DNA of 64,000 nt from the NCBI GenBank assembly GCA_965112735.1, contig OZ218962.1, forward strand, positions 2,914,001 to 2,978,000, written 5' to 3'. This stretch comes from Phaeosaccion multiseriatum. Its lineage: Eukaryota; Protista; Ochrophyta, other classes. Every line of letters begins with the position of its first letter. Position 1 is the stretch's first letter. Shown piece by piece: positions 1 through 57,181 of this stretch. A model generated the notes under the pieces. The model worked only from the letters and a program-made list of their open reading frames with translations. It was not told the origin of the DNA and ran no database searches. The position numbers and the translations under genes were made by a program.

Positions 1-29235
<29,235 letters not shown>

Positions 29236-37520: not shown

Positions 37521-39803
37521 TTACCAGCGAATCACCTCAAGCCCCTCGGGTAGATCTGCAGGCAGCTGGTATTCCTCCCCAACCGTAAGAATCCTGAGGC
37601 TAGCAGGCAGGCTCTCCAGAGGGCAGGTGTACTCCGGTCTCAGTCTGAGCCCCCGGAGAGAAGCAGGCAGCTTCAGAGGGTGGTTAAAGTCACGCCCCAT
37701 CTCCACCTCCTCCACACCGCAAGGAAGGACCAGCTGCTGATTGAAAAAAAGGCCAAATGTGATCTTCTTGAGCGAGGCAGGCAGCTCCAGAGGGAGGTTA
37801 AAGTATTGCCCCATCACTGCCTCCTCCACACCGCAAGGAAGGTCCACGTGCTGATTGAAGAGAATGCCAAATCTGATCTTCTTGAGCGAGGTAGGCAGCT
37901 CCAGAGGGAGGTTAAAGCACTTCCCCATTTCCACCTCCTCCACACCGCAAGGAAGGTCCAATTGCTGATTGAAGCTCGAGATCAAATGAAATGTGATCTT
38001 CTTGAGCGAGGCAGGCAGCTCCAGAGGGAGGTTAAACCCCTTCCCCATGTTCACCTCCTCCACACCACAAGGAAGGTCCAAGTGCTGATTGAACGTTTCT
38101 CCAAATGTGATCTTCTTGAGCGAGGCAGGCAGCTCCAGAGGGAGGTTAAAGCACTTCCCCATTTCCACCTCCTCCACACCACAAGGAAGGTCCAAGTGCT
38201 GATTGAACTCATATCCAAATTCAATTTTCTTGAGCGAGGCCGGCAGCTCCAGTGGGAGGTTAAACGCATACCCCATGTCCACCTCCTCCACACCGCAAGG
38301 AAGGTCCAAGTGCTGATGGAACTCCTCTCCAAACTTGATCTTCTTCAACGAGGCAGGCAGCTCCAGAGGAAGGTTAAACGCCTCCCCCATCACCACCTCC
38401 TCCACACCACAAGGAAGGTCCAAGTGCTGATGGAACTCCTCTCCAAACTTGATCTTCTTCAACGAGGCAGGCAGCTCCAGAGGAAGGTTAAAGTACTCCC
38501 CCATGTTCACCTCCTCCACACCACAAGGAAGGTCCAAGTGATGATTGAACTCAGAGTTCCAGTCAAAAGTGATCTTCTTCAACGAGGCAGGCAGCTCCAG
38601 GGGGAGGTTAAACGCATCCCCCATCACCACCTCCTCCACACCACAAGGAAGGTCCAAGTGCTGATTGAGGTGCTGGCCAAATGTGATCTTCTTGAGCGAG
38701 GCAGGCAGCTCCAGAGGGAGGTTAAAGCACTTCCCCATTTCCAACTCCTCCACACCACAGGGAAGGTCCAAGTGCTGATTGAACTCAGAGTTCCAGTCAA
38801 AAGTGATCTTCTTGAGCGAGGCAGGCAGCTCCAGGGGGAGGTTAAACGCACACCCCATCACCACCTCCTCCACACCACAAGGAAGGTCCACGTGCCGGTT
38901 GAACAAAGAGGTCCAGCCAAAAGCGATCTTCTTCAAAAAGGCAGGCAGCTCCAGAGGGAGGTTAAAGTGCTGCCCCATCACCACCTCCTCCACACCGCAA
39001 GGAAGGATCAGGGGCTGATTGAACTTCGAGCTCCCATCAAATATGATCCTCTTCACTGAAGCAGGCAGGTCCAGAGGGAGGTTAAAGTGCAGCCCCATCT
39101 CCACCTCCTCTACACCGCAAGGAAAGACCACGTGCTGATTGAAGTAACAGCCAAAAGTGATCTTCTTCAGCGAGGCAGGCAGGTCCAGGGGGGAGTCAAA
39201 CTGCAACCCCATCTCCACCTCCTCGACTGTGCTTGGTACCGACACGGCTTGATTGAAACTGTCGGAGAAAATAAGGCGCTTCACCGATGCTGGCAGCAGC
39301 GCCAATGCTTGTTTAGCGAGAGCCTTGTCCTCAGCGGTGTTAGGAGTCGTACTTTCGCTGGTGCCGGCCATGATGTAATCGTGGACGCTGCCGCTAGGGC
39401 CGAGCTTCACAGCCACGACGCGAAAGAAACCACTGCCCGCCTCGACTGTCTGCTCTTCGTCTTCCTCTTCTTGCCTCTCCTGGATCCTTCCCGACTTCCC
39501 CACCTCTTCAGCGCCACCCGCAGGCTCCACGGAGGGTGAAAACGCAACCTTCCTCGCGTCCCCTTCCTTCTGGTGCTTCAGCAAGCTTAGCATACGCAGC
39601 TGCACAGTCTTGGGCATGGCGGTGCTGATCACCAGAGTGCGGGAGGTGACCTCATCCACATCCTTACACACTCCCCACAGAGCTTTGTTCGAGATGAGGC
39701 AGGCCACACTTCTCAGAGCCGCTGGCCCCGCGCTGCTCCAAGGTACTAACCTAGTTACGCCCTTGGATACTTCTTCCCCCCCGCCTTTCGCAGCTCGCTC
39801 CAT
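37521..39803 (-). CDS. FNIP-repeat protein F1 (760 aa): 13 A/B repeat pairs plus terminal A unit and C-cap, F-box-like N-terminus
   Basis: Intronless ORF; scaffold VEEVxMGxxFNLPLELPASLKKIxF(Gxx or xxxSx)FNQHLDLPCG. Confidence 0.92.
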   Translation of the reverse strand: MERAAKGGGEEVSKGVTRLVPWSSAGPAALRSVACLISNKALWGVCKDVDEVTSRTLVISTAMPKTVQLRMLSLLKHQKEGDARKVAFSPSVEPAGGAEEVGKSGRIQERQEEEDEEQTVEAGSGFFRVVAVKLGPSGSVHDYIMAGTSESTTPNTAEDKALAKQALALLPASVKRLIFSDSFNQAVSVPSTVEEVEMGLQFDSPLDLPASLKKITFGCYFNQHVVFPCGVEEVEMGLHFNLPLDLPASVKRIIFDGSSKFNQPLILPCGVEEVVMGQHFNLPLELPAFLKKIAFGWTSLFNRHVDLPCGVEEVVMGCAFNLPLELPASLKKITFDWNSEFNQHLDLPCGVEELEMGKCFNLPLELPASLKKITFGQHLNQHLDLPCGVEEVVMGDAFNLPLELPASLKKITFDWNSEFNHHLDLPCGVEEVNMGEYFNLPLELPASLKKIKFGEEFHQHLDLPCGVEEVVMGEAFNLPLELPASLKKIKFGEEFHQHLDLPCGVEEVDMGYAFNLPLELPASLKKIEFGYEFNQHLDLPCGVEEVEMGKCFNLPLELPASLKKITFGETFNQHLDLPCGVEEVNMGKGFNLPLELPASLKKITFHLISSFNQQLDLPCGVEEVEMGKCFNLPLELPTSLKKIRFGILFNQHVDLPCGVEEAVMGQYFNLPLELPASLKKITFGLFFNQQLVLPCGVEEVEMGRDFNHPLKLPASLRGLRLRPEYTCPLESLPASLRILTVGEEYQLPADLPEGLEVIRW

Positions 39804-39959
39804 TCCGGTCTGGCTCGTTTCGGTGTGAATTTTAGGAGATAGTTGATAGATGGAAGGTCACGCGATCGTCACCCAAACAAAGATCTGTGAGTGCGGCGAC
39901 GATGTCGTGGGTGTTGGTGCTCCGCCTTCCCGGCATATCATATGGAAGAAGCAACAAAA

Positions 39960-40300
39960 GACCAACCTCCCGCTCTCCGATGATCAACGACGCCATGCCC
40001 AAGGCTGTGCAGAAGCAGATGCTTGGTATGCTTAGGCAGCAAGGACAAGGAGGAGAGAAAGACTGCCTCCTGCTGCTCAAATGACAAGACTGAGGGAAGA
40101 GGCAAGGGGAGGAGGGTCCAGTGGTCGGGGGGGAAGAAGGCGAAGGGGCAACAGAAGAAGGAAGAGGAGGCGAGAAGGAGTTCTTCGTCCTCAATTGCTA
40201 CCACAACGGACGGAAGCGGTGCCGGTGGGAGCGGGGCGAAGAAGACGAAGAGGCAGTGGGGCCATTCTGATGATGCGACGACCGAGGGAGGCAGTGCGGG
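39960..40300 (+). pseudogene. 5' fragment of a plus-type FNIP gene (deleted and frameshifted N-terminus, no repeats), cut by the duplication junction
   Basis: TSR..INDAMPKAVQKQMLGMLRQQ, then a frameshift to DKEERKTASCCSNDKTEGRG...GGKKAKGQQKKEEE, homologous to the N-termini of F3/F5/F7. Confidence 0.8.
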
Positions 40301-40318
40301 CGAGGCAGGGGGAGAGGC

Positions 40319-41461
40319 ATGGCACGTGCTCCCCCCATGCTGCCCACTCCGGCACCGCCACCCGCGGTGCAAGTAAAGGCCATTCGTGTCCTCGTCGTGA
40401 TCGCCCCTGCTTGCGGCCCCAGTGCTCTACCATCAAGGAGGGCAGTGGCGGGTGTGGGAGAGGCACTCGGACTTTGTGGAGCACGCATGGTGCCCGCTTC
40501 TACCCCCCTTGTGTTCGACGTTCGCCGGGGAGGGGGGAGCCCGGGTGATGGGCTAGGCACCACACTCAGGGCTCAGTACGATGTCGTGTTCATCGATACC
40601 TGGCACCATCACTGGCACCATCACTGGCAGAAGGGAGATGCAAGTCGTAGTTGCGCTGGACATGAGCAGGAGCAGCAGAGGGGGAAGACTGCTGGACCTT
40701 TCTCCTCCTCCTCCTCTTCGTCGTCGTCGACGTTGCCGTCGTCGTCGTCTGTCTGCTGGTGTTCGGAGCCCCAGCACACGAGTCCGTACTTTGTGGGCAA
40801 GGAGATGGCGCGGTTTCTGCGGCATAACAGAAACGACCAGGCCCACATCTATCTGCTAGTCCCCCCCCCATCTCCTTTCGCTGCTGCTGCTGCTGTTGCT
40901 GCTGCTCCCGATACCCAACACGAGCAAGACGCTGAGCTACGGAGCTGCGGGGTGAACGGGGTGGTGGTACAACGAGGCGACCATCTCGTCCCGGAGACCC
41001 TCGTGAAGCTGACCATGAGGATCCTCATGCTCTCCACTACGGGCGTGTCCGGGGGTCGGGGAAGGGTTGGAGGTGGTGCCAGAGGTGGTGAGACTCGAGA
41101 ATCAGAGTGGGCAGGAGGAGGAGTGGGGGGAGGAGAGGAGGCGTATGCCACCAGGAGCGGCTTCTCTTCCCCGCCCCCGTCCTCGTCCTCCCCCCCGCTA
41201 CTACCGCTGGAGTACTCCGTCCAGGGACGCAACACCACCACCACCACCACCATCAGCACCAGCAGCAGCATGGATGTCTTCGACTCGAGATCTGACACAC
41301 TTGACGGGGAGGCCCGGCCTCCACTCGCGAAAGCATGTAGGGCTCCGAGCTGGTGCCACAGCTCCCAGTCTATAGACCACCTCCTTCATCAGCCACACGA
41401 GGGGGGAGGCGGTGGGGAGGAAGAGGTAGGGCGGGGGGGACCATGGGAGGCCTGGGTGTGA
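40319..41461 (+). CDS. REC-like hypothetical protein, copy 2
   Basis: 380-aa ORF paralogous to 35686-36804; differs by two compensating indels at ~40600-40636. Confidence 0.6.
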   Translation: MARAPPMLPTPAPPPAVQVKAIRVLVVIAPACGPSALPSRRAVAGVGEALGLCGARMVPASTPLVFDVRRGGGSPGDGLGTTLRAQYDVVFIDTWHHHWHHHWQKGDASRSCAGHEQEQQRGKTAGPFSSSSSSSSSTLPSSSSVCWCSEPQHTSPYFVGKEMARFLRHNRNDQAHIYLLVPPPSPFAAAAAVAAAPDTQHEQDAELRSCGVNGVVVQRGDHLVPETLVKLTMRILMLSTTGVSGGRGRVGGGARGGETRESEWAGGGVGGGEEAYATRSGFSSPPPSSSSPPLLPLEYSVQGRNTTTTTTISTSSSMDVFDSRSDTLDGEARPPLAKACRAPSWCHSSQSIDHLLHQPHEGGGGGEEEVGRGGPWEAWV

Positions 41462-42178
41462 GGGTCCCGTGTGCGGAGGAGTGGTGGAAGGCACTTAATG
41501 GAGAGGAGGGAGGGGCGCGTCTGTGGAAGGAGGTGGCACGGACTCGCCCGCCCCTGTCTATGTCTGCAAGGTGTACCTGGAGAGGAGAGAGAGAGAGAGG
41601 GAGGAGAGGGAGAGACAAAAGAGGGAGGGAGAGAAGCCTATACATAGTTTTGTTACAGAGAGAGGGATCGGAAAGGGAGAGGACGACACAGAAAGTGTGG
41701 TAAATACATAAAAGGCGCGGGGTGGCACAGGAGCGCGAGCACGAGCACGAAAGAAAGAGAGAAAGAAGGAGGAGAGGCTTAGCTGCGCTTCGTCCTCTTC
41801 GAAAACAAACGTAACTGTGATTACGAGAACAAACATAACGATGTATGTATACCCTAAAGAGGGCCCAGGAGCTCCTGCTCTTCCCACTGCACAACCGACC
41901 CAGCCGCTCTTCCTCTGCCGTTTCCCATTTTCGCCATCGTAGTTTTATACATCTTTTATGCACGTATAAATATAGCTTCCCCCGCTACTCCCCCCCGCTC
42001 CTCCCCGCAGCTCCTCTCTGCACTGAAAGACGGACAGGTGACAAGTGACTCCCTTGTTGGCTACGCTGCTCGCTCCCCCTCGGTTGCCGCACCTCCTGCT
42101 GAGACCTCCCCCCTCTTGAGGCAGGGCCTACGAGAGCTGTGCTGTGCTGTGCGTTGTCGTCCTGTCCCATCGCCTTCC

Positions 42179-44503
42179 TCAGCAGCGGGTCACCTTAAGC
42201 CCCTCGGGTAGATCTGCAGGCAGCTGGTATTCCTCCCCAACCGTAAGAATCCTGAGGCTAGCAGGCAGGCTCTCCAGAGGGCAGGTGTACTCCGGTCTCA
42301 GTCTGAGCCCCCGGAGAGAAGCAGGCAGCTTCAGAGGGTGGTTAAAGCACTTCCCCATCGCCACATGCTCCACACCGCAAGGAAGGACCAAGTGCTGATT
42401 GAACTGTGAGGCCTCATGAAATGCGATCTTCTTGAGCGAGAGAGGCAGCTCCAGAGGGAGGTTAAAGTCAGGACCCATCACCACCTCCTCCACACCGCAA
42501 GGAAGGTCCAGCTGCTGATTGAACTTAGCATACCCCCTGCCGAATCTGATCTTCTTCAAAGAGGCAGGGAGGTCCAGAGGGAGGTTAAAGTCAGGCCCCA
42601 TCCAAACCTCCTCCACACCGCAAGGAAGGACCAAGTGCTGATTGAACTTCGAATCGGGGTCAAATGTGATCTTCTTGAGCGAGGCAGGCAGCTCCAGAGG
42701 GAGGTTGAAGTACCGCCCCATCCAAACCTGCTCCACACCGCAAGGAAGGATCAGGGGCTGATTGTACTTCGAGCTCCCATCAAATATGATCCTCTTGACT
42801 GAAGCAGGCAGCTCCAGAGGGAGGTTAAAGTGCTGCCCCATCTCCACCTCCTCCACACCACAAGGAAGGATCAGGGGCTGATTGTACTTCGATTCCACAG
42901 CAAATTTGATCTTCTGGAGCGAGGCAGGCAGCTTCAGAGGGAGATTAAAGTCACGCCCCACTATCACCTCCTCCGCGCCACAAGGAAGGAGCAGCTGCTG
43001 ATTGAACTTCTGGCCCAGTCTGATCTTCTGGAGCGAGGCAGGCAGCTCTAGAGGGTGGTTAAAGCACTTCCCCATCTGCAGCTCCTCCACACCACAAGGA
43101 ATGTCCAACTGCTGATTGAACTCCGATTCCATATCAAATGCGATCTTCTTGAGCGAGGCAGGGAGGTCCAGAGGGAGGTTAAAGTGCTTCCCCATCTGCA
43201 GCTCCTCCACACCACAAGGAAGGTCCAAGTGATGATTGAACTGTGAGCCCTTATCAAATCTGATCTTCTTCAACGAGGCAGGCAGCTCCAGAGGGAGATT
43301 AAAGTACTCCCCCATGTCCACCTCCTCCACACCACAAGGAAGGTCCACGTGCTGATTGAAGTGATTCCCAAATATGATCTTCTTGAGCGAGGCAGGCAGG
43401 TCCAGAGGGCGGTTAAAGCGCCACCCCATGTCCACGTCCTCCACACCAAAAGGAAGGTCCAAGTGCTGATTGAAGAGTGAGTCATACCCAAATCTGATCT
43501 TCTTGAGCGAGGCAGGCAGCTCCAGAGGGAGGTTAAACCCACACCCCATGTCCACCTCCTCCACACCACAAGGAAGGTCAATGTGCTGATTGAACGTAGA
43601 GGTGAAGCCAAATCTGATCTTCTTGAGCGAGGCAGGCAGCTCCAGAGGGAGGTTGAAGCCATTCCCCATCCCCACCTCCTCCACACCGCAAGGGAGGATC
43701 AGGGGCTGCTTGAACTTCGAGCTCCCAACAAATATGATCCTCTTCACTGAAGCAGGCAGCTCCAGAGGGAGGTTAAAGTCACCCCCCACTATCACCTCCT
43801 CCACGCCACAAGGAAGGAGCAGCTGCTGATTGAACTTCTGGCCCAGTCTGATCTTCTGGAGCGAGGCAGGCAGGTCCAGGGGGGAGTCAAAGTGACACCC
43901 CATCTCCACCTCCTCGACTGTGCTTGGTACCGACACGGCTTGATTGAAACTGTCGGAGAAAATAAGGCGCTTCACCGATGCTGGCAGCAGCGCCAATGCT
44001 TTTCTAGCGAGAGCCTTGTCCTCAGCGGTGTTAGGAGTCGTACTTTCGATAAACGCCGTTGTCACGTCAAAGTAGGGGGCGACGGTACGGCCGAGCTTCA
44101 CAGCCGCGACGCGAAAGAAACCACTGCCCGCTTCGACTGCCTGCTCTTCGTCTTCCTCCTCTTGCCTCTCCTGGATCATTCCCGACTTCCCCACCTCTTC
44201 AGCAGGCTCAGTACCCGCCGGCTCTACGGAGAATGATAAAGCAACCTTCCTCGAGTCCTCTTCCTTCTGGTTCTTCAGCAAGCTTAGCATACGACGCTGT
44301 ACACACTCGGGCATGTCGGTATTGATCACCAGAGTGCGGGAGGTGGCCTCATCGAGCTCCTTGCACACTCCCCACAGAGCTTTGCTAGGGAAGAGGCACG
44401 CCACACTTCTCAGAGCCGCTGGCCCCGCGCTGCTCCAAGGTACTAAGCTCATTAAGCCCTTGGAGGCTCCTCCTCCCCCCCCGCCTCTCCCTGCTCGCTC
44501 CAT
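42179..44503 (-). CDS. FNIP-repeat protein F2 (774 aa from the native ATG): 13 A/B pairs plus terminal A unit and C-cap
   Basis: Intronless ORF; ATG at 44503 aligns with the F1 start (MERA..GGG); the upstream in-frame ATG at 44578 lies in the retroelement tail. Confidence 0.92.
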   Translation of the reverse strand: MERAGRGGGGGGASKGLMSLVPWSSAGPAALRSVACLFPSKALWGVCKELDEATSRTLVINTDMPECVQRRMLSLLKNQKEEDSRKVALSFSVEPAGTEPAEEVGKSGMIQERQEEEDEEQAVEAGSGFFRVAAVKLGRTVAPYFDVTTAFIESTTPNTAEDKALARKALALLPASVKRLIFSDSFNQAVSVPSTVEEVEMGCHFDSPLDLPASLQKIRLGQKFNQQLLLPCGVEEVIVGGDFNLPLELPASVKRIIFVGSSKFKQPLILPCGVEEVGMGNGFNLPLELPASLKKIRFGFTSTFNQHIDLPCGVEEVDMGCGFNLPLELPASLKKIRFGYDSLFNQHLDLPFGVEDVDMGWRFNRPLDLPASLKKIIFGNHFNQHVDLPCGVEEVDMGEYFNLPLELPASLKKIRFDKGSQFNHHLDLPCGVEELQMGKHFNLPLDLPASLKKIAFDMESEFNQQLDIPCGVEELQMGKCFNHPLELPASLQKIRLGQKFNQQLLLPCGAEEVIVGRDFNLPLKLPASLQKIKFAVESKYNQPLILPCGVEEVEMGQHFNLPLELPASVKRIIFDGSSKYNQPLILPCGVEQVWMGRYFNLPLELPASLKKITFDPDSKFNQHLVLPCGVEEVWMGPDFNLPLDLPASLKKIRFGRGYAKFNQQLDLPCGVEEVVMGPDFNLPLELPLSLKKIAFHEASQFNQHLVLPCGVEHVAMGKCFNHPLKLPASLRGLRLRPEYTCPLESLPASLRILTVGEEYQLPADLPEGLKVTRC

Positions 44504-44543
44504 AACGGCTTGTTCTTTGTCTTTTGGTTTGGTTGAAGGAACG

Positions 44544-45106
44544 GCTTTTGGTAACTTTATTACACCCTTAAGTGCCATCTATGGTTGAAATATATATTAC
44601 ACCCTTAAGTGCCATCTATGGTTGTCTAAAAGTAATGTCTCACCGCCCCGGGGAACTTAGCCCTCGAGGTCGTGTCCCTCTGACTCATCAGTTCTTCCCA
44701 TTGGAACAAAGTTGATACCAGCCAGGATCCTGTGGCGAACCGATCGTTCGTGTCGGGCCCGCTGGAGCGCTACGGCTAATCGTCGCCGAATGACGCAAAC
44801 AGCCCTCGCATAAGCCCTCGTGTCAAGATGTTCGTGCCCCCCAGCCATGTGGGTGGCGAGTGTTTTAAAAAACATCTGTGCTGACGGGCCAAATGCACCT
44901 TGCTGTTCTATTGCAAAAGGGACAAGGTGGTACCGCGTGGGGTCATAGTGGATGTCCCCACCCTGGCCTTCCATGCCTACCTGTGGCACCCCATACCTGG
45001 TCCGCTTGGTCGCTTCAGCCTTCTTGGCTGCCGCGAGTGCCTCCTTCGATGCCTTGGCCCGGTTGGTGGTGTTGGTGGCATCTGTGAGCGTGACGTCGAT
45101 CATGAA
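44544..45106 (-). mobile_element. 5'-truncated non-LTR retrotransposon (restriction-like endonuclease type, CRE/HERO-like): C-terminal endonuclease fragment plus 3' UTR (element A)
   Basis: ORF 45103-44657 IDVT...AAAKKAEATKRTRY...LVPFAIEQQGAFGPSAQMFFKTLA...RRRLAVALQR matches the C-terminal REL-endonuclease signature; duplicated 30-bp tail at 44558-44624; flanked by copies of TGGTTGAAGGAA. Confidence 0.82.
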
Positions 45107-45118
45107 TGGTTGAAGGAA

Positions 45119-45166
45119 AAAACTTTATTGACTTAATAGGAATCACCTAAGAAACTGAAAGTGTGA

Positions 45167-45200
<34 letters not shown>

Positions 45201-45327
45201 GTGTCGCTGTGTCTCCGGGGCCCTCGAGGGGCCGGTTACTCCCCCTCTAGGGCGGGGAGGGGGAGTGCGGGACCGGCTCCGCGGTTGAGCCGACCCAGGA
45301 AGGCGCGCTCCCGCTCCGAGAGCCACA
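45119..45327 (-). mobile_element. Second short insert (element B), probably the 3' end of a related retroelement
   Basis: Bounded by TGGTTGAAGGAA (45107-45118 and 45328-45339); minus strand reads WLSERERAFLGRL...LEGE-stop, then (CA)n and AATAAAGTT, like the end of element A. Confidence 0.55.
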
Positions 45328-45457
45328 TGGTTGAAGGAACGAAAATTCTGTGATTGCGGCGACGATCTCGTGGGTCGTTGGTGCTCCGCCTTCCTCAAAG
45401 CCTATCAACGACCACTATCAACGACCACGAGAAAGAAAAAAACAGACATAGGAGGGG

Positions 45458-47918: not shown

Positions 47919-49584
47919 TCAGTAGCGAACCATCTTCAGCCCCTCGGGTACATCTGCCGGCAGGGGACACCTCGTGCTAGCCTCGAGCTTCCTCAGTCCA
48001 GCAGGCAGGCTTTCCAAGGGGCAGGTGTACAGCGCTGACAGCACCAGAGTCCGCAGCGAGGCAGGCAGCTCCAGAGGGAGGTTGAAGTTACGCCCCATCT
48101 CCACCTCCTCCACGCCACAAGGAAGGACCAACGGCTTATTGAACCTGGAGAACTGCTCAAACGTGATTTTCTTCAGAGAGACAGGGAGGTCCAGAGGGAG
48201 GTTAAAGTCATGCCCCATCACCACCTCCTCCACACCACAAGGAAGGTCCAAGTGCTGATTGAACTGTGAGCTCCTGCCAAATGTGATCTTCTTCAGTGAG
48301 GCAGGCAAGTCCAGAGGGTGGTTAAAGCTATCCGCCATCACCACCTCCTCCACGCCGCAAGGAAGGATCAGGGGCTGATTAAACATCGAGCTCCCATCAA
48401 ATCTGATCTTCTTGAGCGAGGCAGGTAATTTCAGGGGGAGGTTAAAGTTCCACCCCATCTCCACCTCCTCCACACCACAGGGAAGAACCAAGTGCTGTTT
48501 GAAGTGCTGGCCAAATCTGACTTTCTTCAGCGAGGCAGGCAGGTCCAGTGGGAGGTTAAAGTCACGCCCCATCTCCACCTCCTCCACACCACAAGGAAGG
48601 TCCACTTGTTGATTAAACCTCGGGCCAAATTTGATCTTCTTGAGCGAGGCAGGCAGGTCCAGAGGGAGGTTAAAGGCACGCCCCATCTCCACCTCCTCCA
48701 CACCGCAAGGAAGAACCACGTGCTGATTGAAGAGATTCCCAAACTTGATCTTCTTCAAAGAGGCAGGCAGCTCCAGTGGGAGGTTAAACTCACGCCCCAT
48801 CACCACCTCCTCCACACCACAAGGAAGGGCCGCGTGCTGATTGAAGAGATTCCCAAACTTGATCTTCTTCAAAGAGGCAGGCAGCTCCAGAAGGAGGTTA
48901 TAGTCACGCCCCATCACCACCTCCTTCACACCACAAGGAAGGTCCACATGTTGATTGAAGAAATTCCCAAACTTGATCTTCTTCAGAGAGGCAGAGGTTG
49001 AACATATTCCCCATCACCACCTCCTCCACACCACAAGGAAGGGTCACGTGCTCCTCGAGCTGAGATCTCCAGCCAAACCGGATCTTCTTCAGGGAGCTAG
49101 GAAGGACCAGAGGACTGCTAAACGCATCCCCCGTCTCCAGCTCCTCGACTGTGCTTGGTAGACACACGCCGGTTTGATTGAAAAAGGGGGAGAAAGACAC
49201 CCGCTTCACCGAAGGCGGTAAAAGCGCGAGCACCTTTGCAACAAGGGCCTCATCTGCACACACCATGGCCTCATCCTCCGCATCTTGCCTAGTCCTGAGG
49301 CCAAGCTCCACCGCCGCCACGCGAAAGAAGCTTCTGCAATAATCGCCTCCCTCCTGTTCCTTCTCCTTCTCCTCAGTAGCATCCGAAGGTGGAGGGGGAA
49401 ATGCAGCGCTTCTCTCATCCTTTCCCTGTTGTCGCTCCAGCATACGCAGGATGCGGTGCTGGACATCGTCGGGCATGCTGGTGCTGATTATCAAAGTGCG
49501 GGAGGTGACCTCATCCACCTCCTTGCACACTCCCCACAGAGCTTTATCGGGAAAGAAGACTGCCACAGTTCGAAGAGCCGCGGG
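47919..49584 (-). pseudogene. FNIP-repeat pseudogene F4 (9 A/B pairs plus cap)
   Basis: 14-bp deletion at ~48994 (FNL-CLS instead of FNLPLDLPAS) shifts the frame; the segment upstream of AALRTVA is deleted relative to F1/F6, so there is no native start; 3' ORF 47919-48947 is intact. Confidence 0.85.
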
Positions 49585-49648
49585 TAAAAGTAATGATCTG
49601 TGAGTGCGGCGACGATCTCGTGGGTAGTTGGTGCACCACATTCCCTGC

Positions 49649-49667
49649 TTAAGGGTGTAATATATAT
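49649..49667 (+). mobile_element. 19-nt retroelement-tail insertion with an 11-bp target-site duplication
   Basis: ACATTCCCTGC-[TTAAGGGTGTAATATATAT]-ACATTCCCTGC; the paralogous site at 54184-54194 has one ACATTCCCTGC; the insert is the reverse complement of 44590-44608. Confidence 0.8.
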
Positions 49668-49717
49668 ACATTCCCTGCCGCCGAGGAGCCGGGCGGCAAC
49701 GACAATCAAAGGAGAGA

Positions 49718-51019
49718 ATGGAGGCAAGGAATAGCATCTCCCAGGGGATGGCGGCCCCTGGCTCGATGGTGGCCACGAAGGCCTTGAGAACTGTGGCTGG
49801 GCTCATTTCGAACAAAGCTCTGTGGGGAGTGTGCAAGGAGGTCGACGAGGTCACCTCCCGCACTCTGGTGATCCACGACGCCATGCCGGAAGATGTCCAA
49901 AACCGCATGCTCGGCATGCTTAAGCAGCAGAAGAAGGACGACGAAGAGAGGGAGGCTGCCTCGTGCTGCTCATATGACAAGACTGAGGGAGGAGGGGAAG
50001 GGGGGATTGGGGGGAAGAAGGCGAAGGGGCAACGAAACAACTCCTCTTCGTCCTCTCCTAATGATATGACGCCTGAGGGAAGCAGTGCTGAGGGGAGTAT
50101 CCGACGGTCGGGGCGGATGAAGGCGAAGAGGCAACGGAAGAAGGAAGACGAGGAGAGAGTGGGTGCTTCGTCCTCTTCAATTGCAATGACGACTGAGGGA
50201 AGCAGTGCTGGGGGGAGCGCCCGATGCTCGGGGGGGATGAGAATGGCAAAGATGCAGCGAAGGGAAGCTCGAAGAAGGTCATTCCGTGTCGCGGCGGTGA
50301 AAATTGGCTGGAGCTTCAATGAGTACTTGGACCTTCCTTGCGGCGTGGAGGAGGTGGAGATAGGGCCGGGGTTTAATCAACATGTGGACCTGCCTCCCTC
50401 ACTGAAGAAGATCAAGTTTGTCTGGAACTCTAGGTTCAATCAGCCCCTGACCCTTCCTTGTGGTGTGGAGGAGGTGGAGATGGGGCTGCACTTTAACCTC
50501 CCACTGGACCTACCTGCCTCGCTCAAGAGGATCAAGTTTGGCCGGGAGTCACAGTTCAATCAGCAGCTGGACATTCCTTGTGGTGTGGAGGAGGCGGTGA
50601 TGGGGGATTTCTTTAACTTCCCTCTGGACCTCCCTGCCTCGCTCAAGAAGATCAAGTTTGGCAGCAAGTCGAAGTTCAACCAGCAGCTGGTCCTTCCCTA
50701 TGGTGTGGAGGAGGTTTGGATGGGGCCGTACTTTAACCTCCCTCTGGACCTCCCTGCCTCGCTCAAGAAGATCATGTTTATCTGGACCTCTGACTTCAAT
50801 CAGCCGTTGGTCCTTCCTTACGGTGTGGAGGAGGTGCAGATGGGGCCGGAGTTTAACTTCCCTCTGGACCTCCCTGCTTCTCTGCGGACTCTGTGGCTGG
50901 GACGGAATTACACCTGCCCTTTGGAGAGCCTGCCTGCTGGCGTGAGGAACCTCACAGTTGGGGAGGAATACCAGCTGCCTGCAGACCTACCCGAGGGGCT
51001 TGAGGTGCGTCGCTGGTGA
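49718..51019 (+). CDS. FNIP-repeat protein F5 (433 aa): 4 A/B pairs plus terminal A unit and C-cap
   Basis: Intact intronless ORF with F-box-like N-terminus, basic low-complexity linker, repeats and cap. Confidence 0.9.
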   Translation: MEARNSISQGMAAPGSMVATKALRTVAGLISNKALWGVCKEVDEVTSRTLVIHDAMPEDVQNRMLGMLKQQKKDDEEREAASCCSYDKTEGGGEGGIGGKKAKGQRNNSSSSSPNDMTPEGSSAEGSIRRSGRMKAKRQRKKEDEERVGASSSSIAMTTEGSSAGGSARCSGGMRMAKMQRREARRRSFRVAAVKIGWSFNEYLDLPCGVEEVEIGPGFNQHVDLPPSLKKIKFVWNSRFNQPLTLPCGVEEVEMGLHFNLPLDLPASLKRIKFGRESQFNQQLDIPCGVEEAVMGDFFNFPLDLPASLKKIKFGSKSKFNQQLVLPYGVEEVWMGPYFNLPLDLPASLKKIMFIWTSDFNQPLVLPYGVEEVQMGPEFNFPLDLPASLRTLWLGRNYTCPLESLPAGVRNLTVGEEYQLPADLPEGLEVRRW

Positions 51020-52275
51020 GGACGAGAACGACGGTGGAGGGGGGCCAGGACGACGACGGATGACGCCGCAGCTCACGTAAGCTTATGTGGGAAGCACGGA
51101 AGGCGGCAGAGAAGCGGTTGTCATCTACTGTGGCACGGGAGGGGTACACCAAAGTGGATCCTTGATTCAACGGAGGCCCGACCCTCCGTGGGAGGGGAAG
51201 GAAAGGAGAAGATGAAAGAGAGAGAGAGAGAGAGAAAATACGCACCCACCGCCCAGGGGTGCAGCGGGACGATTGTATGTGCGCTTGCTTTTGACTGCTG
51301 CTAACCATCGGAAATGAATATGACTGAAACCTCAGACACTTTATACATACATACATACACAGCCGTACCTGGCAGGGACGCGCCCTTCAAAGTTCCCCAG
51401 GAGAATGCTGTCAGTACTCGCCTCTGACCCGGCCTTCTGGTGATGCTGCTGGGAGGGCTGGCAGGCAGCTTTGTTTCCGAGGTGAGGTGGCGTACCTCCT
51501 CTGCTGCCAGCGTTGCGGTGTGGTCCCCCTTAAAGGCAGGGCAAGTTGACGATGGCGCATACACCAGTCAGCGGGCAGCCTCTCTCGGGCCAGCCGTTGC
51601 TTGGGAACGGAAGCTCAAACTCAACCTCCGGTCGGGTGGGACTGGGTGGTGCCCAGGAAGGTACTGAGTCCCACCTCCTCCCTTCCTTACACAGCACAAG
51701 GAGCAGCAGAAGCGTTCACGTCTAATGTGTGTGTACAGAAGCGTTAACGTCTAATGTGTATGTACATTGTTTAGCAACATCGTGAGAGCTCTTCTATGCC
51801 CTTGCCTCAGCCCCCACCTGGTGGTGTAGTTTCTTGGGTCGGGCCCTCCTCCTCCTCCTCCTCCTCCTCCTCCTCCTCCTCCTCCTCCTCCTCCTCCTCC
51901 TCCCACTCATCCTACCGCACAACCAACCCATCTCTCCCTCTGACTGCTTCCCTTGTAGCTGCAACTGTAATGTATGTATGTTCAGCACTGCATCGCCTGC
52001 TGCTGCTGCAGGGGGCCGGACAGCTGACTTTCTTGTTGGCTACGCTTGCTCTCTCCTCCTCACGCTGCTGCACCTCTTGCTGTGACCTCCCTCAGCTCCG
52101 TTGAGCACCGCCTGCCTGCCCTCGTGCCTGGAGACAAGGGTGGGGCTCTTCCACAGAAAGGGTCTGGCTTGTCAATCCCAAAGCCCCCTTTTCCCCTCGA
52201 CAATAGCACGACAATACGAGCCATCCTCCTCTTCCTCCCACCGTTCCATCGTCCCGAGTAGCGTCATGTCATCCG

Positions 52276-54087
52276 TCAGTAGCGAACCATCTTCAGCCCC
52301 TCGGGTACATCTGCCGGCAGGGGACACCTGGTGCTCGCCTCGAGCTTCCTCAGGCCAGCAGGCAGGCTTTCCAAGGGGCAGGTGTACAGCGCTGACAGCA
52401 CCAGAGTCCGCAGCGAGGCAGGCAGCTCCAGAGGGAGGTTGAAGTTACGCCCCATCTCCACCTCCTCCACGCCACAAGGAAGGACCAACGGCTGATTGAA
52501 GCCGGAAAACTGCTCAAACGTGATTTTCTTCAGAGAGGTAGGGAGGTCCAGAGGGAGGTTAAAGTCATGCCCCATCTCCACCTCCTCCACACCACAAGGA
52601 AGGTCCAAGTGCTGATTGAAAAATGAGTCTTGATGAAATCTGATCTTCTTCAGAGAAGTAGGGAGGTCCAGAGGGAGGTTAAAGTCATACCCCATCACCA
52701 CCTCCTCCACACCACAAGGAAGGTCCAAGTGCTGATTGAACTGTGAGTTCCTGCCAAATGTGATCTTCTTCAAAGAGGCTGGCAGGTCCAGTGGGAGGTT
52801 AAAGTCACTCCCCATCTCCACCTCCTCCACACCACAGGGAAGAACCAAGTGCTGTTTGAAGTGCTGGCCAAATCTGACTTTCTTCAGCGAGGCAGGCAGG
52901 TTCAGTGGGAGGTTAAAGTCACGCCCCATCTCCACCTCCTCCACACCACAAGGAAGGTCCACTTGTTGATTAAACCTCGGGCCAAATTTGATCTTCTTGA
53001 GCGAGGCAGGCAGGTCCAGAGGGAGGTTAAAGTCACGCCCCATCCCCACCTCCTCCACACCACAGGGAAGAACCACGTGCTGATTGAAGAGATTCCCAAA
53101 CTTGATCTTCTTCAAAGAGGCAGGCAGCTCCAGTGGGAGGTTAAACTCACGCCCCATCACCACCTCCTCCACACCACAGGGAAGAACCACATGCTGATTG
53201 AAGAGATTCCCAAACTTGATCTTCTTCAGCGAGGCGGGCAGGTCCAGAAGGAGGTTGAACATATTCCCCATCACCACCTCCTCCACACCACAGGGAAGAA
53301 CCACATGCTGATTGAAGAGATTCCCAAACTTGATCTTCTTCAGCGAGGCGGGCAGGTCCAGAAGGAGGGTGAACATATTCCCCATCCCCACCTCCTCCAC
53401 ACCACCACAAGGAAGGTCAACATGTTGACTGAAGAAATTCCCAAACTTGATCTTCTTCAGTGAGGCGGGCAGGTCCAGGGGGAGGTTGAACATATTCCCC
53501 ATCACCACCTCCTCCACACCACAAGGAAGGGTCACGTGCTCCTCGAGCTGAGATCTCCAGCCAAACCGGATCTTCTTCAGGGAGCTAGGAAGGACCAGAG
53601 GACTGCTAAACGCATCCCCCGTCTCCAGCTCCTCGACTGTGCTTGGTAGACACACGCCGGTTTGATTGAAAAAGGGGGAGAAAGACACCCGCTTCACCGA
53701 AGGCGGTAAAAGCGCGAGCACCTTTGCAACAAGGGCCTCATCTGCACACACCATGGCCTCATCCTCCGCATCTTGCCTAGTCCTGAGGCCAAGCTCCACC
53801 GCCGCCACGCGAAAGCAGCTTCTGCAATAATCGCCTCCCTCCTGTTCCTTCTCCTTCTCCTCAGTATCACCTGAAGGTGGAGGGGGAAATGCAGCGCTTC
53901 TCTCATCCTTTCCCTGTTGTCGCTCCAGCATACGCAGGATGCGGTGCTGGACATCGTCGGGCATGCTGGTGCTGATTATCAAAGTGCGGGAGGTGACCTC
54001 ATCCACCTCCTTGCACACTCCCCACAGAGCTTTATCGGGAAAGAAGACTGCAACAGTTCGAAGAGCCGCGGGCCCAGAGCTGCTCCA
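52276..54087 (-). CDS. FNIP-repeat gene F6 (10 A/B pairs plus cap); start region disrupted, first in-frame ATG at 53964, possible pseudogene
   Basis: Frame is open from ~54090 to the stop at 52276; in-frame TGA just upstream of LPWSSSGP; ATG at 54103 is out of frame (8-nt deletion relative to F1). Confidence 0.75.
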   Translation of the reverse strand, partial: WSSSGPAALRTVAVFFPDKALWGVCKEVDEVTSRTLIISTSMPDDVQHRILRMLERQQGKDERSAAFPPPPSGDTEEKEKEQEGGDYCRSCFRVAAVELGLRTRQDAEDEAMVCADEALVAKVLALLPPSVKRVSFSPFFNQTGVCLPSTVEELETGDAFSSPLVLPSSLKKIRFGWRSQLEEHVTLPCGVEEVVMGNMFNLPLDLPASLKKIKFGNFFSQHVDLPCGGVEEVGMGNMFTLLLDLPASLKKIKFGNLFNQHVVLPCGVEEVVMGNMFNLLLDLPASLKKIKFGNLFNQHVVLPCGVEEVVMGREFNLPLELPASLKKIKFGNLFNQHVVLPCGVEEVGMGRDFNLPLDLPASLKKIKFGPRFNQQVDLPCGVEEVEMGRDFNLPLNLPASLKKVRFGQHFKQHLVLPCGVEEVEMGSDFNLPLDLPASLKKITFGRNSQFNQHLDLPCGVEEVVMGYDFNLPLDLPTSLKKIRFHQDSFFNQHLDLPCGVEEVEMGHDFNLPLDLPTSLKKITFEQFSGFNQPLVLPCGVEEVEMGRNFNLPLELPASLRTLVLSALYTCPLESLPAGLRKLEASTRCPLPADVPEGLKMVRY

Positions 54088-54137
54088 AGGTAATCACGCC
54101 CATGGACTCGTCTCCTCCCCCCCCCGCTGAAAGTAAT

Positions 54138-54190
54138 GATCTGTGAGTGCGGCGACGATCTCGTGGGTAGTTGTTGGTGCACCACATTCC
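54138..54190. promoter_or_regulatory. Conserved spacer motif between head-to-head FNIP genes (candidate bidirectional promoter); also at ~39882, ~45347, ~49595
   Basis: TCTGTGAGTGCGGCGACGATCTCGTGGGT..TTGGTGC is retained in all four spacers; function inferred from position only. Confidence 0.45.
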
Positions 54191-54236
54191 CTGCCGCCGA
54201 GGAGCCGGGCGGCAACAACAGCGAGCAGAGGAGAGA

Positions 54237-56942
54237 ATGGAGGCAAGGAATAGCAGCTCCCACGGGATGGCGGACCATGGTTCGATGGTGGCCACGAAGG
54301 CCTTGAGAACTGTGGCTGGGCTTATTTCGAACAAAGCTCTGTGGGGAGTGTGCAAGGAGGTCGATGAGGTCACCTCCCGCACTCTGGTGATCAACGACGC
54401 CATGCCGGAAGATGTCCAAAAACGCATGCTGGGCATGCTTAGGCAGCAGAAGAAGGACGAGGAAGAGAGGGAGGCTGCCTCGTGCTGCTCAAATGACAAG
54501 ACTGAGGGAAGAGGGGAGGGGGGGGGGGTCCGACGGTCCGGGGGGAAGAAGGCGAAGGGGCAACGAAACAACTCCTCTTCGTCCTCTCCTAATGATATGA
54601 CGCCTGAGGGAAGCAGTGGCGGGGGAAGTATCCGACGGTCGGGGCGGATGAAGGCGAAGAGGCAACGGAAGAAGGAAGACGAGGAGAGAGTGGGTACTTC
54701 GTCCTCTTCAATTGCAATGACGACTGAGGGAAGCAGTGCTGGGGGGAGCGCCCGATGGTCGGGGGGGATGAAAATGGCAAAGATGCAGCGAAGGGAAGCT
54801 CGAAGAAGGTCATTCCGTGTCGCGGCGGTGAAAATTAGGGGAAGCTTCAGTGAGTCCTTGGACCTTCCTTGCGGCGTGGAGGAGGTTGTGATGGCGGATA
54901 GCTTTAACCACCCTCTGGACCTGCCTGCCTCACTGAAGAAGATCAGATTTGATGGGTACTCACGGTTCAATCAGCACTTGGTTCTTCCCTGTGGTGTGGA
55001 GGAGGTGGAGATGGGGCGTGACTTTAACCGCCCTCTGGACCTCCCTGCCTCGCTCAAGAAGATCAGATTTGGCCAGCACTTCAATCAGCACGTGGACCTT
55101 CCCTGTGGTGTGGAGGAGGTGGAAATGGGGCAGCACTTTAACCTCCCTCTGGAGCTGCCTGCCTCGCTCAAGAAGATCGAATTTGCGTATGACTCACACT
55201 TCAATCAGCACGTGGTCTTTCCTTGCGGCGTGGAGGAGGTTGTGATGGCGGATAGCTTTAACCTCCCCCTGGACCTCCCTGCCTCGCTCAAGAAGATCAG
55301 ATTTGATGAAGACTCGGATTTCAATCAGCACTTGGACCTTCCTTGTGGTGTGGAGGAGGTGGAGATGGGGCGTGACTTTAACCGCCCTCTGGACCTCCCT
55401 GCCTCGCTCAAGAAGATCAGATTTGGCCAGCACTTCAATCAGCACGTGGACCTTCCCTGTGGTGTGGAGGAGGTGGAAATGGGGCAGCACTTTAACCTCC
55501 CTCTGGAGCTGCCTGCCTCGCTCAAGAAGATCGAATTTGCGTATGACTCACACTTCAATCAGCACGTGGTCTTTCCTTGCGGCGTGGAGGAGGTTGTGAT
55601 GGCGGATAGCTTTAACCTCCCCCTGGACCTCCCTGCCTCGCTCAAGAAGATCAGATTTGATGAAGACTCGGATTTCAATCAGCACTTGGACCTTCCTTGT
55701 GGTGTGGAGGAGGTGGAGATGGGGCGTGACTTTAACCGCCCTCTGGACCTCCCTGCCTCGCTCAAGAAGATCAGATTTGGCCAGCACTTCAATCAGCACG
55801 TGGACCTTCCTTGTGGTGTGGAGAAGGTGGAGATGGGGTGGCACTTTAACCTCCCTCTGGAGCTGCCTGCCTCGCTCAAGAAGATCGAATTCGGCGTTAT
55901 CTTTAATCAGCACGTGGACCTTCCTAGTGGTGTGGAGGAGGTGGTGATGGGGCAGGACTTTAACCTCCCTCTGGAGCTGCCTGCCTCTTTGAAGAAGATC
56001 AAGTTTGGGAATCTCTTCAATCAGCACGCGGCCCTTCCTTGTGGTGTGGAGGAGGTGGTGATGGGGCGTGAGTTTAACCTCCCTCTGGAGCTGCCTGCCT
56101 CGCTCAAGAAGATCGAATTTGCGTATGACTCACACTTCAATCAGCACGTGGTCTTTCCTTGCGGCGTGGAGGAGGTGGAGATTGGGCATTACTTTGACCT
56201 ACCTCTGGAGCTGCCTGCCTCGCTCAAGAAGATCAGATTTGGCATAAACTTCAATCAGCACGTGGACCTTCCTTGTGGTGTGGAGGAGGTGGTGATGGGG
56301 CTGCACTTTAACCTCCCTCTGAACCTCCCTGCCTCGCTCAAGAAGATCAAATTTGGCATTATGTTTAATCAGCACGTGAACCTTCCCTGTGGTGTGGAGG
56401 AGGTGGAGATGGGGCAGCACTTTAACCTCCCTCTGGACCTGCCTGCCTCGCTCAAGAAAATCAAGTTTGGAGAGGAGTTCAATCAGCACTTGGTCCTTCC
56501 TTGTGGTGTGGAGGAGGTGGTGATGGGGCAGGAGTTTAACCTCCCTCTGGACCTCCCTGCCTCGCTCAAGAAGATCACTTTTATCTGGAACTCTGAGTTC
56601 AATCAGCACTTGGTCCTTCCTTGCGGTGTGGAGGAGGTGGAAATGGGGTATGCGTTTAACCTCCCTCTAGAGCTGCCTGCCTCGCTCAAGAAGATCGAAT
56701 TTGAGGTTGAATCACAGTTCAATCAGCAGCTGGCTCTTCCTTTCGGCGTGGAGGCGGTGGTGATGGGGCCGGAGTTTAACCACCCTCTGGAGCTGCCTGC
56801 TTCTCTGCGGACTCTAGTGCTGGGACGGAGTTACACCTGCCCTTTGGAGAGCCTGCCTGCTGGCCTGAGGAAGCTGAGGGTTAGAATGAACTGCCCGCTG
56901 CCTGCAGACCTACCCGAGGGGCTTGAGGTGCGTCGCTGGTGA
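54237..56942 (+). CDS. FNIP-repeat protein F7 (901 aa): 16 A/B pairs plus terminal A unit and C-cap
   Basis: Intact intronless ORF; ATG 54237 aligns with the F5 start MEARNS. Confidence 0.92.
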   Translation: MEARNSSSHGMADHGSMVATKALRTVAGLISNKALWGVCKEVDEVTSRTLVINDAMPEDVQKRMLGMLRQQKKDEEEREAASCCSNDKTEGRGEGGGVRRSGGKKAKGQRNNSSSSSPNDMTPEGSSGGGSIRRSGRMKAKRQRKKEDEERVGTSSSSIAMTTEGSSAGGSARWSGGMKMAKMQRREARRRSFRVAAVKIRGSFSESLDLPCGVEEVVMADSFNHPLDLPASLKKIRFDGYSRFNQHLVLPCGVEEVEMGRDFNRPLDLPASLKKIRFGQHFNQHVDLPCGVEEVEMGQHFNLPLELPASLKKIEFAYDSHFNQHVVFPCGVEEVVMADSFNLPLDLPASLKKIRFDEDSDFNQHLDLPCGVEEVEMGRDFNRPLDLPASLKKIRFGQHFNQHVDLPCGVEEVEMGQHFNLPLELPASLKKIEFAYDSHFNQHVVFPCGVEEVVMADSFNLPLDLPASLKKIRFDEDSDFNQHLDLPCGVEEVEMGRDFNRPLDLPASLKKIRFGQHFNQHVDLPCGVEKVEMGWHFNLPLELPASLKKIEFGVIFNQHVDLPSGVEEVVMGQDFNLPLELPASLKKIKFGNLFNQHAALPCGVEEVVMGREFNLPLELPASLKKIEFAYDSHFNQHVVFPCGVEEVEIGHYFDLPLELPASLKKIRFGINFNQHVDLPCGVEEVVMGLHFNLPLNLPASLKKIKFGIMFNQHVNLPCGVEEVEMGQHFNLPLDLPASLKKIKFGEEFNQHLVLPCGVEEVVMGQEFNLPLDLPASLKKITFIWNSEFNQHLVLPCGVEEVEMGYAFNLPLELPASLKKIEFEVESQFNQQLALPFGVEAVVMGPEFNHPLELPASLRTLVLGRSYTCPLESLPAGLRKLRVRMNCPLPADLPEGLEVRRW

Positions 56943-57135
56943 GGACGAGAACGACGGTGGAGGGGGGCCAGGACGACGACGGATGACGCCGCAGCTCACG
57001 TAAGCTTATGTGGGAAGCACGGAAGGCGGCAGAGAAGCGGTTGTCATCTGCTGTGGCACGGGAGGGGTACACCAAAGTGGATCCTTGATTCAACGGAGGC
57101 CCGACCCTCCGCGGGAGGGAAGGAAAGGAGAAGAT

Positions 57136-57181
<46 letters not shown>

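What the first reader, a model, noticed from the sequence alone, without database searches (positions are those of the whole stretch)
37521..56942. Hypervariable FNIP-repeat gene cluster: candidate diversifying recognition (immune-like) repertoire
Seen: seven intronless genes or pseudogenes built from strictly alternating A units (VEEV-x-MG-xx-FNLPLELPAS, 19 aa) and B units (LKKI-x-F-Gxx or F-xxxSx-FNQHLDLPCG, 19 or 21 aa). The DNA scaffold is nearly identical from unit to unit and gene to gene, while the codons at the x positions vary across almost all residue classes. Duplicates F1 and F2 have near-identical C-caps and the same 13 pairs, yet almost every variable loop differs (F1: GCY, DGSSK, GWTSL, DWNSE, GQH...; F2: GQK, VGSSK, GFTST, GYDSL, GNH...). 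Pair numbers are 13, 13, 8, 9, 4, 10 and 16. Known: FNIP repeats are LRR-like and expanded in Dictyostelium and giant viruses; the x positions correspond to the beta-strand/concave face that binds ligand in LRR proteins. Conserved repeats with hypervariable sites are typical of fungal NLR repeat domains, lamprey VLRs and brown-algal LRR-ROCO genes. Inference: a fast-evolving binder repertoire, probably under pathogen-driven selection, using an unusually short FNIP unit.
Basis: partly seen in the sequence, partly recalled or inferred. Interest (0 to 1): 0.92.

Follow-up and report, generated by a model that had tools for sequence, protein, structure and literature searches.

The report
Module-swapping FNIP binder gene cluster
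A eukaryote carries a cluster of seven leucine-rich-repeat (FNIP) genes, three of them broken, that duplicate and swap near-identical repeat units while the predicted binding face changes faster than silent sites, so they are likely an inherited, fast-evolving set of intracellular binders against parasites, a cellular counterpart of gene families already known from giant viruses.

Summary
In detail: seven FNIP genes (Pfam PF05725) of alternating A/B units, variable at positions 5, 8, 9. They sit in four head-to-head cassettes multiplied by tandem duplication; four ORFs are intact, three broken. Units move by internal duplication and by conversion between genes (114-bp identical tract F4/F7); loops absent from the window occur in the organism's reads. 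Diversifying selection is moderately supported: close unit pairs show amino-acid change at 5/8/9 at 1.5-1.8x the scaffold silent rate, with no raised silent rate, but part of the codon-model signal is reproduced by recombination alone. Corrections: 19-aa units are not unusual (19 of 47 relatives); variability at 5/8/9 and the VLR analogy are already published for FNIP proteins (PMC9525666); no signal peptide, membrane or signalling domain, so these are not VLR/NLR/ROCO-type receptors. The conserved head looks F-box-like but failed profile tests. No ligand, expression or somatic rearrangement shown. The scan noted the same pattern earlier in giant viruses; here it is a cellular genome.

The parts
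37521..39803 (-). F1, intact type I gene, 760 aa: head, low-complexity insert, N-cap, 14 A + 13 B units, C-cap
42179..44503 (-). F2, intact type I gene, 774 aa, duplicate of F1; 14 A + 13 B (one B of 22 aa)
45458..47270 (+). F3, type II pseudogene: stop at 47102-47104, degenerate frameshifted units to about 47270, no C-cap
   Evidence: contigs of X1, X2, X3 cross the broken 3' end with 0-1 differences
47919..49640 (-). F4, type I pseudogene: 55-nt deletion at 49585 and 14-nt frameshifting deletion at 48995 relative to F6
   Evidence: the 55-nt deletion is bridged by an X1 contig
49718..51019 (+). F5, intact type II gene, 433 aa, 5 A + 4 B, basic NLS-like stretch in the insert
52276..54110 (-). 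F6, probable type I pseudogene: long ORF (11 A + 10 B) whose upstream ATG is out of frame after an 8-nt loss at 54098 relative to F1
54237..56942 (+). F7, intact type II gene, 901 aa, 17 A + 16 B, NLS-like stretch
39940..40260 (+). 5' relic of a type II gene, head-to-head partner of F1
   Evidence: blastn matches to F3, F5 and F7 5' regions; translation
39880..54180 (-). four copies of a shared about 45-nt element between the head-to-head partners (core at 39903, 45366, 49616, 54159); likely a bidirectional promoter (inferred)
35692..44503 (.). tandem segmental duplication I: 35.7-39.8 kb = 40.3-44.5 kb (unknown gene X + F1/F2); non-FNIP part 0-9% diverged per 150-nt block
47540..57880 (.). 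tandem segmental duplication II: F4/F5 block = F6/F7 block; non-repeat parts mostly 0-8% diverged
48778..48891 (-). 114-bp tract identical to 55970-56083 (+) in the non-sister, inverted gene F7: gene-conversion tract (inferred)
   Evidence: next-longest exact match between non-sister genes is 58 bp
54990..55810 (+). very recent internal duplication in F7: 354-bp block (three A+B pairs), 467 bp exact match at offset 354
29500..32681 (-). F0, older FNIP gene with the same head motif and GT-AG introns at the FG glycine

Best explanation
This is an inherited, duplicating family of FNIP leucine-rich-repeat genes in a eukaryotic genome whose products are predicted to be intracellular horseshoe-shaped binders, and whose predicted binding face is likely diversified by selection from fast-evolving parasites such as giant viruses. 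Shown: head-to-head cassettes copied in tandem, gene death, gain and loss of repeat units by internal duplication, and an identical tract shared by non-sister genes. Inferred: the near-constant 114/120-bp scaffold lets unequal crossing-over and gene conversion move whole A+B modules within and between genes, point changes at positions 5, 8 and 9 are favoured, and each gene so presents a new stripe of residues along the concave edge. Least certain step: the output. The proteins have no enzyme or signalling domain, so they would act either by binding and blocking a target or, if the conserved two-helix head is a degenerate F-box (about 30%), by handing the target to an SCF ubiquitin ligase; type II copies carry an NLS-like stretch and would act in the nucleus.
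For: FNIP family and fold: Pfam; F1 model matches CroV588 6NYR at E 1e-24. [quoted passage not shown] Scaffold is under purifying selection (omega 0.28-0.39). Close pairs of units (57-77 spanning-tree edges): nonsynonymous rate at 5/8/9 is 1.5-1.8x the scaffold silent rate (p 0.01-0.0002) and 1.9-2.5x the silent rate at the same codons (p 0.07-0.008). dN at 5/8/9 is about 1.0-1.1 against four-fold-site divergence of 0.30 outside the repeats between non-sister genes (177 of 594 non-independent comparisons). F1 v F2: pN 0.57 at variable codons against pS 0.155 in the scaffold and 0.156 in the N-terminus. Against a neutral-plus-free-recombination null: B21 shared-rate test reached in 0 of 80 simulations, A free-rate test in 3 of 80, B19 shared-rate test in 3 of 60. 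Module traffic: (nearest neighbour lies in a non-sister gene for 38 of 146 units). Larger family: three loops from read contigs at about single-copy depth are absent from the window. No hydrophobic segment (max 19-residue hydropathy 1.19).
Against: Recombination alone inflates the shared-rate test (nominal false positives 33-81% of simulations) and reproduces the A shared-rate result in 7-11 of 80, the B21 free-rate result in 9 of 80 and the B19 free-rate result in 31 of 60; B19 alone gives omega 1.1 with a free silent rate. The closest pairs (3 nt or fewer apart, 37 edges) are not significant (p 0.13-0.31). Three of seven genes are broken. No ligand, no expression data, no infection data; the organism's lineage is not established. 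F-box head: no Pfam hit and profile-profile probability 0.1 against viral F-box-FNIP heads. In the second sample a contig over 50079-50463, which includes the first two and a half units of F5, has only 3 differences, at least two of them upstream of the repeats.
Confidence: 0.6

Rival explanations
1. Relaxed constraint plus concerted evolution: positions 5, 8, 9 are simply free surface sites drifting neutrally, while conversion keeps the scaffold young; the family expands because its repeat DNA recombines easily, not because new specificities are selected.
For: Recombination null reproduces several test values; B19 omega 1.1; a silent site inside the long loop (Ser10) is saturated at 0.72; 3 of 7 genes are broken; N-terminus F1 v F2 pN/pS is about 0.77.
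Against: In close pairs silent change at variable codons is not raised (0.04-0.08 v 0.08-0.09) while amino-acid change is about twice it; B21 result never reached in 80 null runs; dN at variable sites exceeds silent divergence outside the repeats.
Confidence: 0.2
2. Diversifying binders whose opponent is not an infecting pathogen: transposon proteins, self/non-self or mating recognition, or host/prey proteins if the organism is itself a parasite or predator.
For: Selection tests say nothing about the opponent; NLS-like stretches in type II genes; a multicopy retroelement-like sequence has inserted twice between cassette partners; lineage unknown.
Against: No signal peptide or membrane anchor for surface recognition or secretion; FNIP variability is tied to virus-virophage-host conflict in published cases (PMC10945749 passages).
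Confidence: 0.12
3. Decaying remains of an inserted giant-virus segment rather than a host gene family.
For: Intronless genes; giant viruses carry tandem F-box-FNIP clusters with the same variable xx (L003); nearest structural and feature matches are viral.
Against: No other viral-type gene seen between the copies; same GC3 (0.69) as the intron-bearing relative F0 (0.70), which shares the head motif; best protein relatives only about 31-37% identical. An older viral origin of the family remains open.
Confidence: 0.04
4. A somatically rearranged, VLR-like system that assembles new receptors in each cell.
For: Constant scaffold, modular units, pseudogene neighbours that could act as donors, and many extra loops in reads.
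Against: Extra loops that were checked sit at about single-copy depth, as germline paralogues would; no empty acceptor gene or free cassettes in the window; silent rate at variable codons not raised.
Confidence: 0.03
5. The paralogues are assembly artefacts (haplotypes laid in tandem or repeat mis-assembly).
For: No read contig spans a whole array; the perfect 354-bp repeat in F7 was not independently confirmed.
Against: Gene-specific stretches of F1, F2, F3 and F5 are each matched without differences at a similar depth (about 380-510 in X2), and a stretch shared by F4 and F6 at about twice that (1164); F1/F2 differ by pS 0.16.
Confidence: 0.01

Closest known systems
FNIP/FGxxFN LRR families (Pfam PF05725) of Cafeteria roenbergensis virus (Crov588, Crov539), mavirus, Dictyostelium and brown algae
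   Same: Same repeat family and fold; same variable positions 5, 8, 9; multigene expansion; already proposed as a variable-ligand repertoire and compared with VLRs (PMC9525666); 121 FNIP proteins in Saccharina (PMC4421812 passage); FNIP gene is a hypervariable region in virophages (PMC10945749 passages).
   Different: Unit of 19/21 aa rather than 22; strict A/B alternation giving a 38-40 aa period; DNA-level near-identity of units across genes with a conversion tract; head-to-head cassettes; cellular genome; no relative closer than about 37% identity in the databases searched.
F-box + FNIP tandem gene clusters of giant viruses (Mimiviridae)
   Same: Short conserved helical head, N-cap, constant scaffold, variable xx loop, tandem copies (L003: five such ORFs; 5 of 5 heads hit Pfam F-box at E up to 1).
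   Different: The head here does not match F-box by Pfam or profile comparison; long low-complexity and NLS-like inserts; eukaryotic host DNA with an intron-bearing paralogue.
Ectocarpus LRR-ROCO and NB-ARC-TPR candidate immune receptors (PMC3341825)
   Same: Birth and death, repeat shuffling within and between loci, diversifying selection on the repeat face.
   Different: There each repeat is an exon and the protein has a ROCO or NB-ARC signalling domain; here arrays are intronless FNIP repeats with no signalling domain.
Lamprey/hagfish variable lymphocyte receptors (features recalled, not from a call, apart from the mention in PMC9525666)
   Same: LRR solenoid with constant frame and variable concave face; module copying by conversion-like events.
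   Different: No signal peptide or anchor, no incomplete germline gene, no evidence of somatic assembly; genes here are complete in the germline.

Membership tests
FNIP/FGxxFN LRR proteins (PF05725) | Pfam PF05725 above gathering score | tested here: met
   7 of 7 cluster ORFs and F0, 93-315 bits against cut-off 21
FNIP/FGxxFN LRR proteins (PF05725) | hxxhx(F/M)GxxFN motif with variable positions 5, 8, 9 | tested here: met
   against PMC9525666
FNIP/FGxxFN LRR proteins (PF05725) | LRR solenoid like Crov588/Crov539 | tested here: met
   F1 model (mean pLDDT 66, single sequence) best match 6NYR E 1e-24; model of relative P0031 best match 7ZAL Z 12.0, rmsd 2.6, 117 aligned
FNIP/FGxxFN LRR proteins (PF05725) | canonical 22-residue unit | tested here: not met
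   units are 19 or 21 aa; 19-aa spacing is the commonest in 19 of 47 FNIP relatives examined, so this marks a subtype, not exclusion
F-box + FNIP SCF adaptors | N-terminal F-box recognisable by sequence profile | tested here: not met
   0 of 7 heads hit F-box at E up to 10; hhalign probability 0.1 against an alignment in which 7 of 14 members hit Pfam F-box; language-model leads of 0.84-0.86 only
F-box + FNIP SCF adaptors | F-box three-helix fold | tested here: inconclusive
   model of relative P0031 has two helices (residues 4-21, 26-31) then a low-confidence stretch before the beta-alpha-beta N-cap; the fold search barely tested residues 1-32
F-box + FNIP SCF adaptors | binds Skp1 | not tested
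VLR-type somatically assembled receptors | signal peptide and membrane anchor | tested here: not met
   no hydrophobic segment in 5 of 5 proteins scanned (hydropathy only, no dedicated predictor)
VLR-type somatically assembled receptors | incomplete germline gene filled somatically from donor cassettes | tested here: inconclusive
   four complete genes and no empty acceptor in the window; contigs drop rare variants, so somatic events cannot be excluded
NLR / ROCO immune receptors | NB-ARC, NACHT, ROC-COR or kinase signalling domain | tested here: not met
   only FNIP passes a Pfam cut-off over matched stretches in the 7 ORFs
NLR / ROCO immune receptors | one repeat per exon, exon shuffling (Ectocarpus ROCO) | tested here: not met
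   arrays are uninterrupted ORFs
Diversity generated by targeted hypermutation | raised silent rate at the variable codons | tested here: not met
   close pairs: 0.044-0.076 at variable codons v 0.075-0.090 in scaffold

The most novel reading that the evidence does not exclude
A cellular eukaryote has turned the giant-virus-type head-plus-FNIP adaptor into a genome-wide intracellular immune library: dozens of paralogues and pseudogenes share one recombination-friendly 114/120-bp frame, trade binding loops by gene conversion, and route captured parasite proteins to the host ubiquitin ligase in cytoplasm (type I) and nucleus (type II), with each pair co-expressed from one head-to-head promoter.
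Probability: 0.15. Interest if true: 0.85.

Novelty: new variant of a known kind. Interest (0 to 1): 0.5.

Why it matters
How single-celled and algal-type eukaryotes recognise intracellular parasites is largely open, and FNIP proteins have no known ligand. This cluster gives a clean, testable case on the host side: four intact genes, three variable positions per unit on a known face, measurable selection and visible module traffic. It would let one test whether cellular FNIP families are defence genes mirroring the viral ones. The very regular 19-aa frame is also a natural binder scaffold. The general concept (variable FNIP repertoires) is published, which caps the surprise.

Tried and rejected
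No whole genome is held, so family size could not be counted; summed contig depth over the arrays is far above flanks but is not a copy number and was not used as one. No RNA holder listed: no statement on expression. Bins without cover in run X5 were not used as evidence of strain differences. Lineage: a WD40 exon search gave only generic hits; microsatellite-rich introns recall eustigmatophyte or other ochrophyte algae, from memory only. Head-domain searches: none in the 5.8-billion set, one chance hit in metagenome contigs on the opposite strand of an unrelated ORF, no meaningful PDB sequence hit, no F-box structure aligned over the head in the fold search (barely tested). Single-site codon fits for scaffold positions stalled at their start values and were discarded; only class-level fits are used. 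All-pairs NG86 within variable codons (pN/pS 1.0-1.7) is saturated and was given little weight. No complex prediction was run, for want of a Skp1 sequence. Gene X looked like a degenerate receiver domain by eye but had no Pfam or PDB hit. Literature: FNIP + positive selection + F-box found 0 papers; listings showed no study of selection on a cellular FNIP cluster; two Matsushima papers on short viral LRR units were seen only as titles in a reference list and could not be read.

Full report
Observation. The seven arrays are real and hit Pfam FNIP far above the cut-off. Parsing gave 77 A and 71 B units in strict alternation; variability is concentrated at positions 5, 8, 9 (entropy 2.0-3.5 bits) and also 7 and 11 in the 21-aa B units, around an invariant Ser10. 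There are 56 distinct loops among 77 A units and 53 among 71 B units, and none of 27 positionally matched F1/F2 loops is identical. No chance explanation is possible at these E-values.

Anatomy. The window is eukaryotic: the neighbouring FNIP gene F0 has GT-AG introns at the FG glycine. The cluster is four copies of a head-to-head cassette: a minus-strand type I gene (F1, F2, F4, F6) and a plus-strand type II gene (a relic at 39.9-40.3 kb, F3, F5, F7), separated by a short interval with one shared motif. Two tandem segmental duplications are visible, with non-repeat DNA mostly under 9% diverged. F1, F2, F5 and F7 are intact; F3 is truncated, F4 has a 5' deletion and a frameshift, F6 has lost the frame of its upstream ATG. 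Read contigs cross F3's broken end in three runs of one sample and F4's 5' deletion in one; F4's frameshift is crossed only by a 51-nt contig of the second sample, short of the tool's bridging rule; F6's lesion was not confirmed. Each protein is a conserved 50-residue head, a low-complexity insert (basic and NLS-like in type II), an N-cap, the array and a C-cap, with no hydrophobic segment.

Fold and face. The single-sequence model of F1 (mean pLDDT 66, head below 50) is a solenoid with one short strand per unit whose best match is CroV588 (E 1e-24). I had no coordinates, so co-planarity is taken from the crystal structures: in PMC9525666 (parts 1-3 of 6 of the text read) position 5 lies on the concave surface and 8-9 along its edge, these are called the most variable positions in CroV, mavirus and Dictyostelium proteins, and the families are proposed to recognise many ligands, with an explicit VLR comparison. 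I used those positions as the a-priori test set.

How diversity arises. Units are gained by internal duplication (467-bp exact match at offset 354 in F7; 103, 83, 70, 67 bp in F6, F1, F2, F1) and move between genes: F4 and the inverted, non-sister F7 share 114 identical bases including a variant that F4's own sister F6 lacks, where the next-longest non-sister match is 58. The nearest neighbour of a unit is in its own gene for 45, the sister for 31, a non-sister for 38 and tied for 32 of 146 units. Read contigs contain loops between scaffold stretches that are not in the window; 3 of 3 checked were absent (chosen from the 24 rows shown of 150), at about single-copy depth, so the family extends beyond the window or has other alleles.

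Selection. Scaffold omega is 0.28-0.39. At 5/8/9, omega with a free silent rate is 4.2 (A, p 6e-4), 2.6 (B21, p 0.025) and 1.1 (B19, p 0.83); against the scaffold silent rate it is 2.0, 3.5 and 2.5 (a second tree gave 3.1, 2.4, 1.3 and 2.2, 3.5, 2.4). Because units recombine, I simulated neutral variable sites on a fully shuffled tree: this alone gave nominal significance in 33-81% of shared-rate tests and 11-12% of free-rate tests. The observed values were reached in 0 of 80 (B21 shared), 3 of 80 (A free), 3 of 60 (B19 shared), 7-11 of 80 (A shared), 9 of 80 (B21 free) and 31 of 60 (B19 free) runs. Counting changes between close pairs gave 55 amino-acid and 6 silent changes at 5/8/9 against 27 and 54 in the scaffold (57 edges up to 4 nt apart); rate ratios 1.5-1.8 and 1.9-2.5 held for thresholds 4-6 but were not significant at 3. 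Silent change at the variable codons is not raised in these pairs, which argues against targeted hypermutation. Outside the repeats, four-fold sites differ by 0.30 between non-sister genes, well below dN of about 1 at the variable sites. Verdict: diversifying selection is likely, of moderate strength, not proven.

Strains. The second sample differs by 3 in 589 and 3 in 385 bases in F3 and F5 5' regions; the latter contig covers the first two and a half units of F5. This shows no rapid turnover there, but the samples are very close and contigs cannot assign inner loops to a locus.

Relatives and the head. The best full-length relatives are 23-37% identical FNIP proteins (17 hits). The 19-aa spacing is the commonest in 19 of the 47 relatives examined (hits were selected by likeness to the query), and a paper on shortened viral LRR units exists (title only), so the short unit is not unique. 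Three unnamed proteins (P0020, P0045, P0031) share the head without the insert. A model of P0031 built on a 10-sequence alignment shows two helices, then a beta-alpha-beta N-cap. The head sits where giant-virus FNIP proteins have an F-box (L003) and has a similar xCK motif (resemblance by eye, F-box consensus recalled), and feature searches give F-box leads below the tool's threshold, but Pfam and profile-profile tests fail. It is not filed as an F-box.

Comparison and novelty. [quoted passage not shown] Large FNIP families are known in kelp (PMC4421812, passage) and Dictyostelium (10.64898/2026.03.01.708701, passages), and FNIP genes are hypervariable in virophages (PMC10945749, passages). 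PMC2373305 and PMC9127612 were seen as passages only and add nothing. Supplements were not read; the repeat annotation file of PMC9525666 could bear on unit lengths. My searches listed no study of selection or module exchange in a cellular FNIP cluster, but subscription journals are not covered. Earlier notes of this scan describe the same pattern in giant viruses; none in this genome. What is new is the cellular, cassette-organised, A/B-alternating, DNA-homogeneous form. Interest 0.5.

Noticed in passing
window 44590-45124 (-), and 49640-49679: A 5'-truncated, multicopy element between F2 and F3: its ORF ends in a motif that recalls the endonuclease end of non-LTR retrotransposons (recalled), its end has many different flanks in read contigs, and a 21-nt piece of the same end sits between F4 and F5 inside a 9-nt direct repeat. 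Both lie in the interval between cassette partners, which hints at a preferred target.
   Followed up: partly
window 35629-36804 (+) and 40274-41461 (+): Gene X, duplicated with F1/F2; by eye a degenerate receiver-like domain, but no Pfam or PDB hit; pN/pS between copies about 0.78.
   Followed up: partly
window 29500-32681 (-): F0: older FNIP gene whose first exon holds the head plus about nine repeats; the intronless cluster could derive from such a first exon (untested).
   Followed up: partly
window 59955-64000 (-): Intron-rich gene with WD40 exons and, by eye, a LysM-like exon near 61900.
   Followed up: partly
window 1779-2667 and 9864-10313: Minisatellites of 53 bp (13 copies) and 32 bp (14 copies); the whole window is rich in 2-5 bp microsatellites.
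   Followed up: no
L003 4607-11787 (+): Five tandem F-box-FNIP ORFs with 21-aa units and variable xx loops on a 1.26-Mb viral contig.
   Followed up: partly
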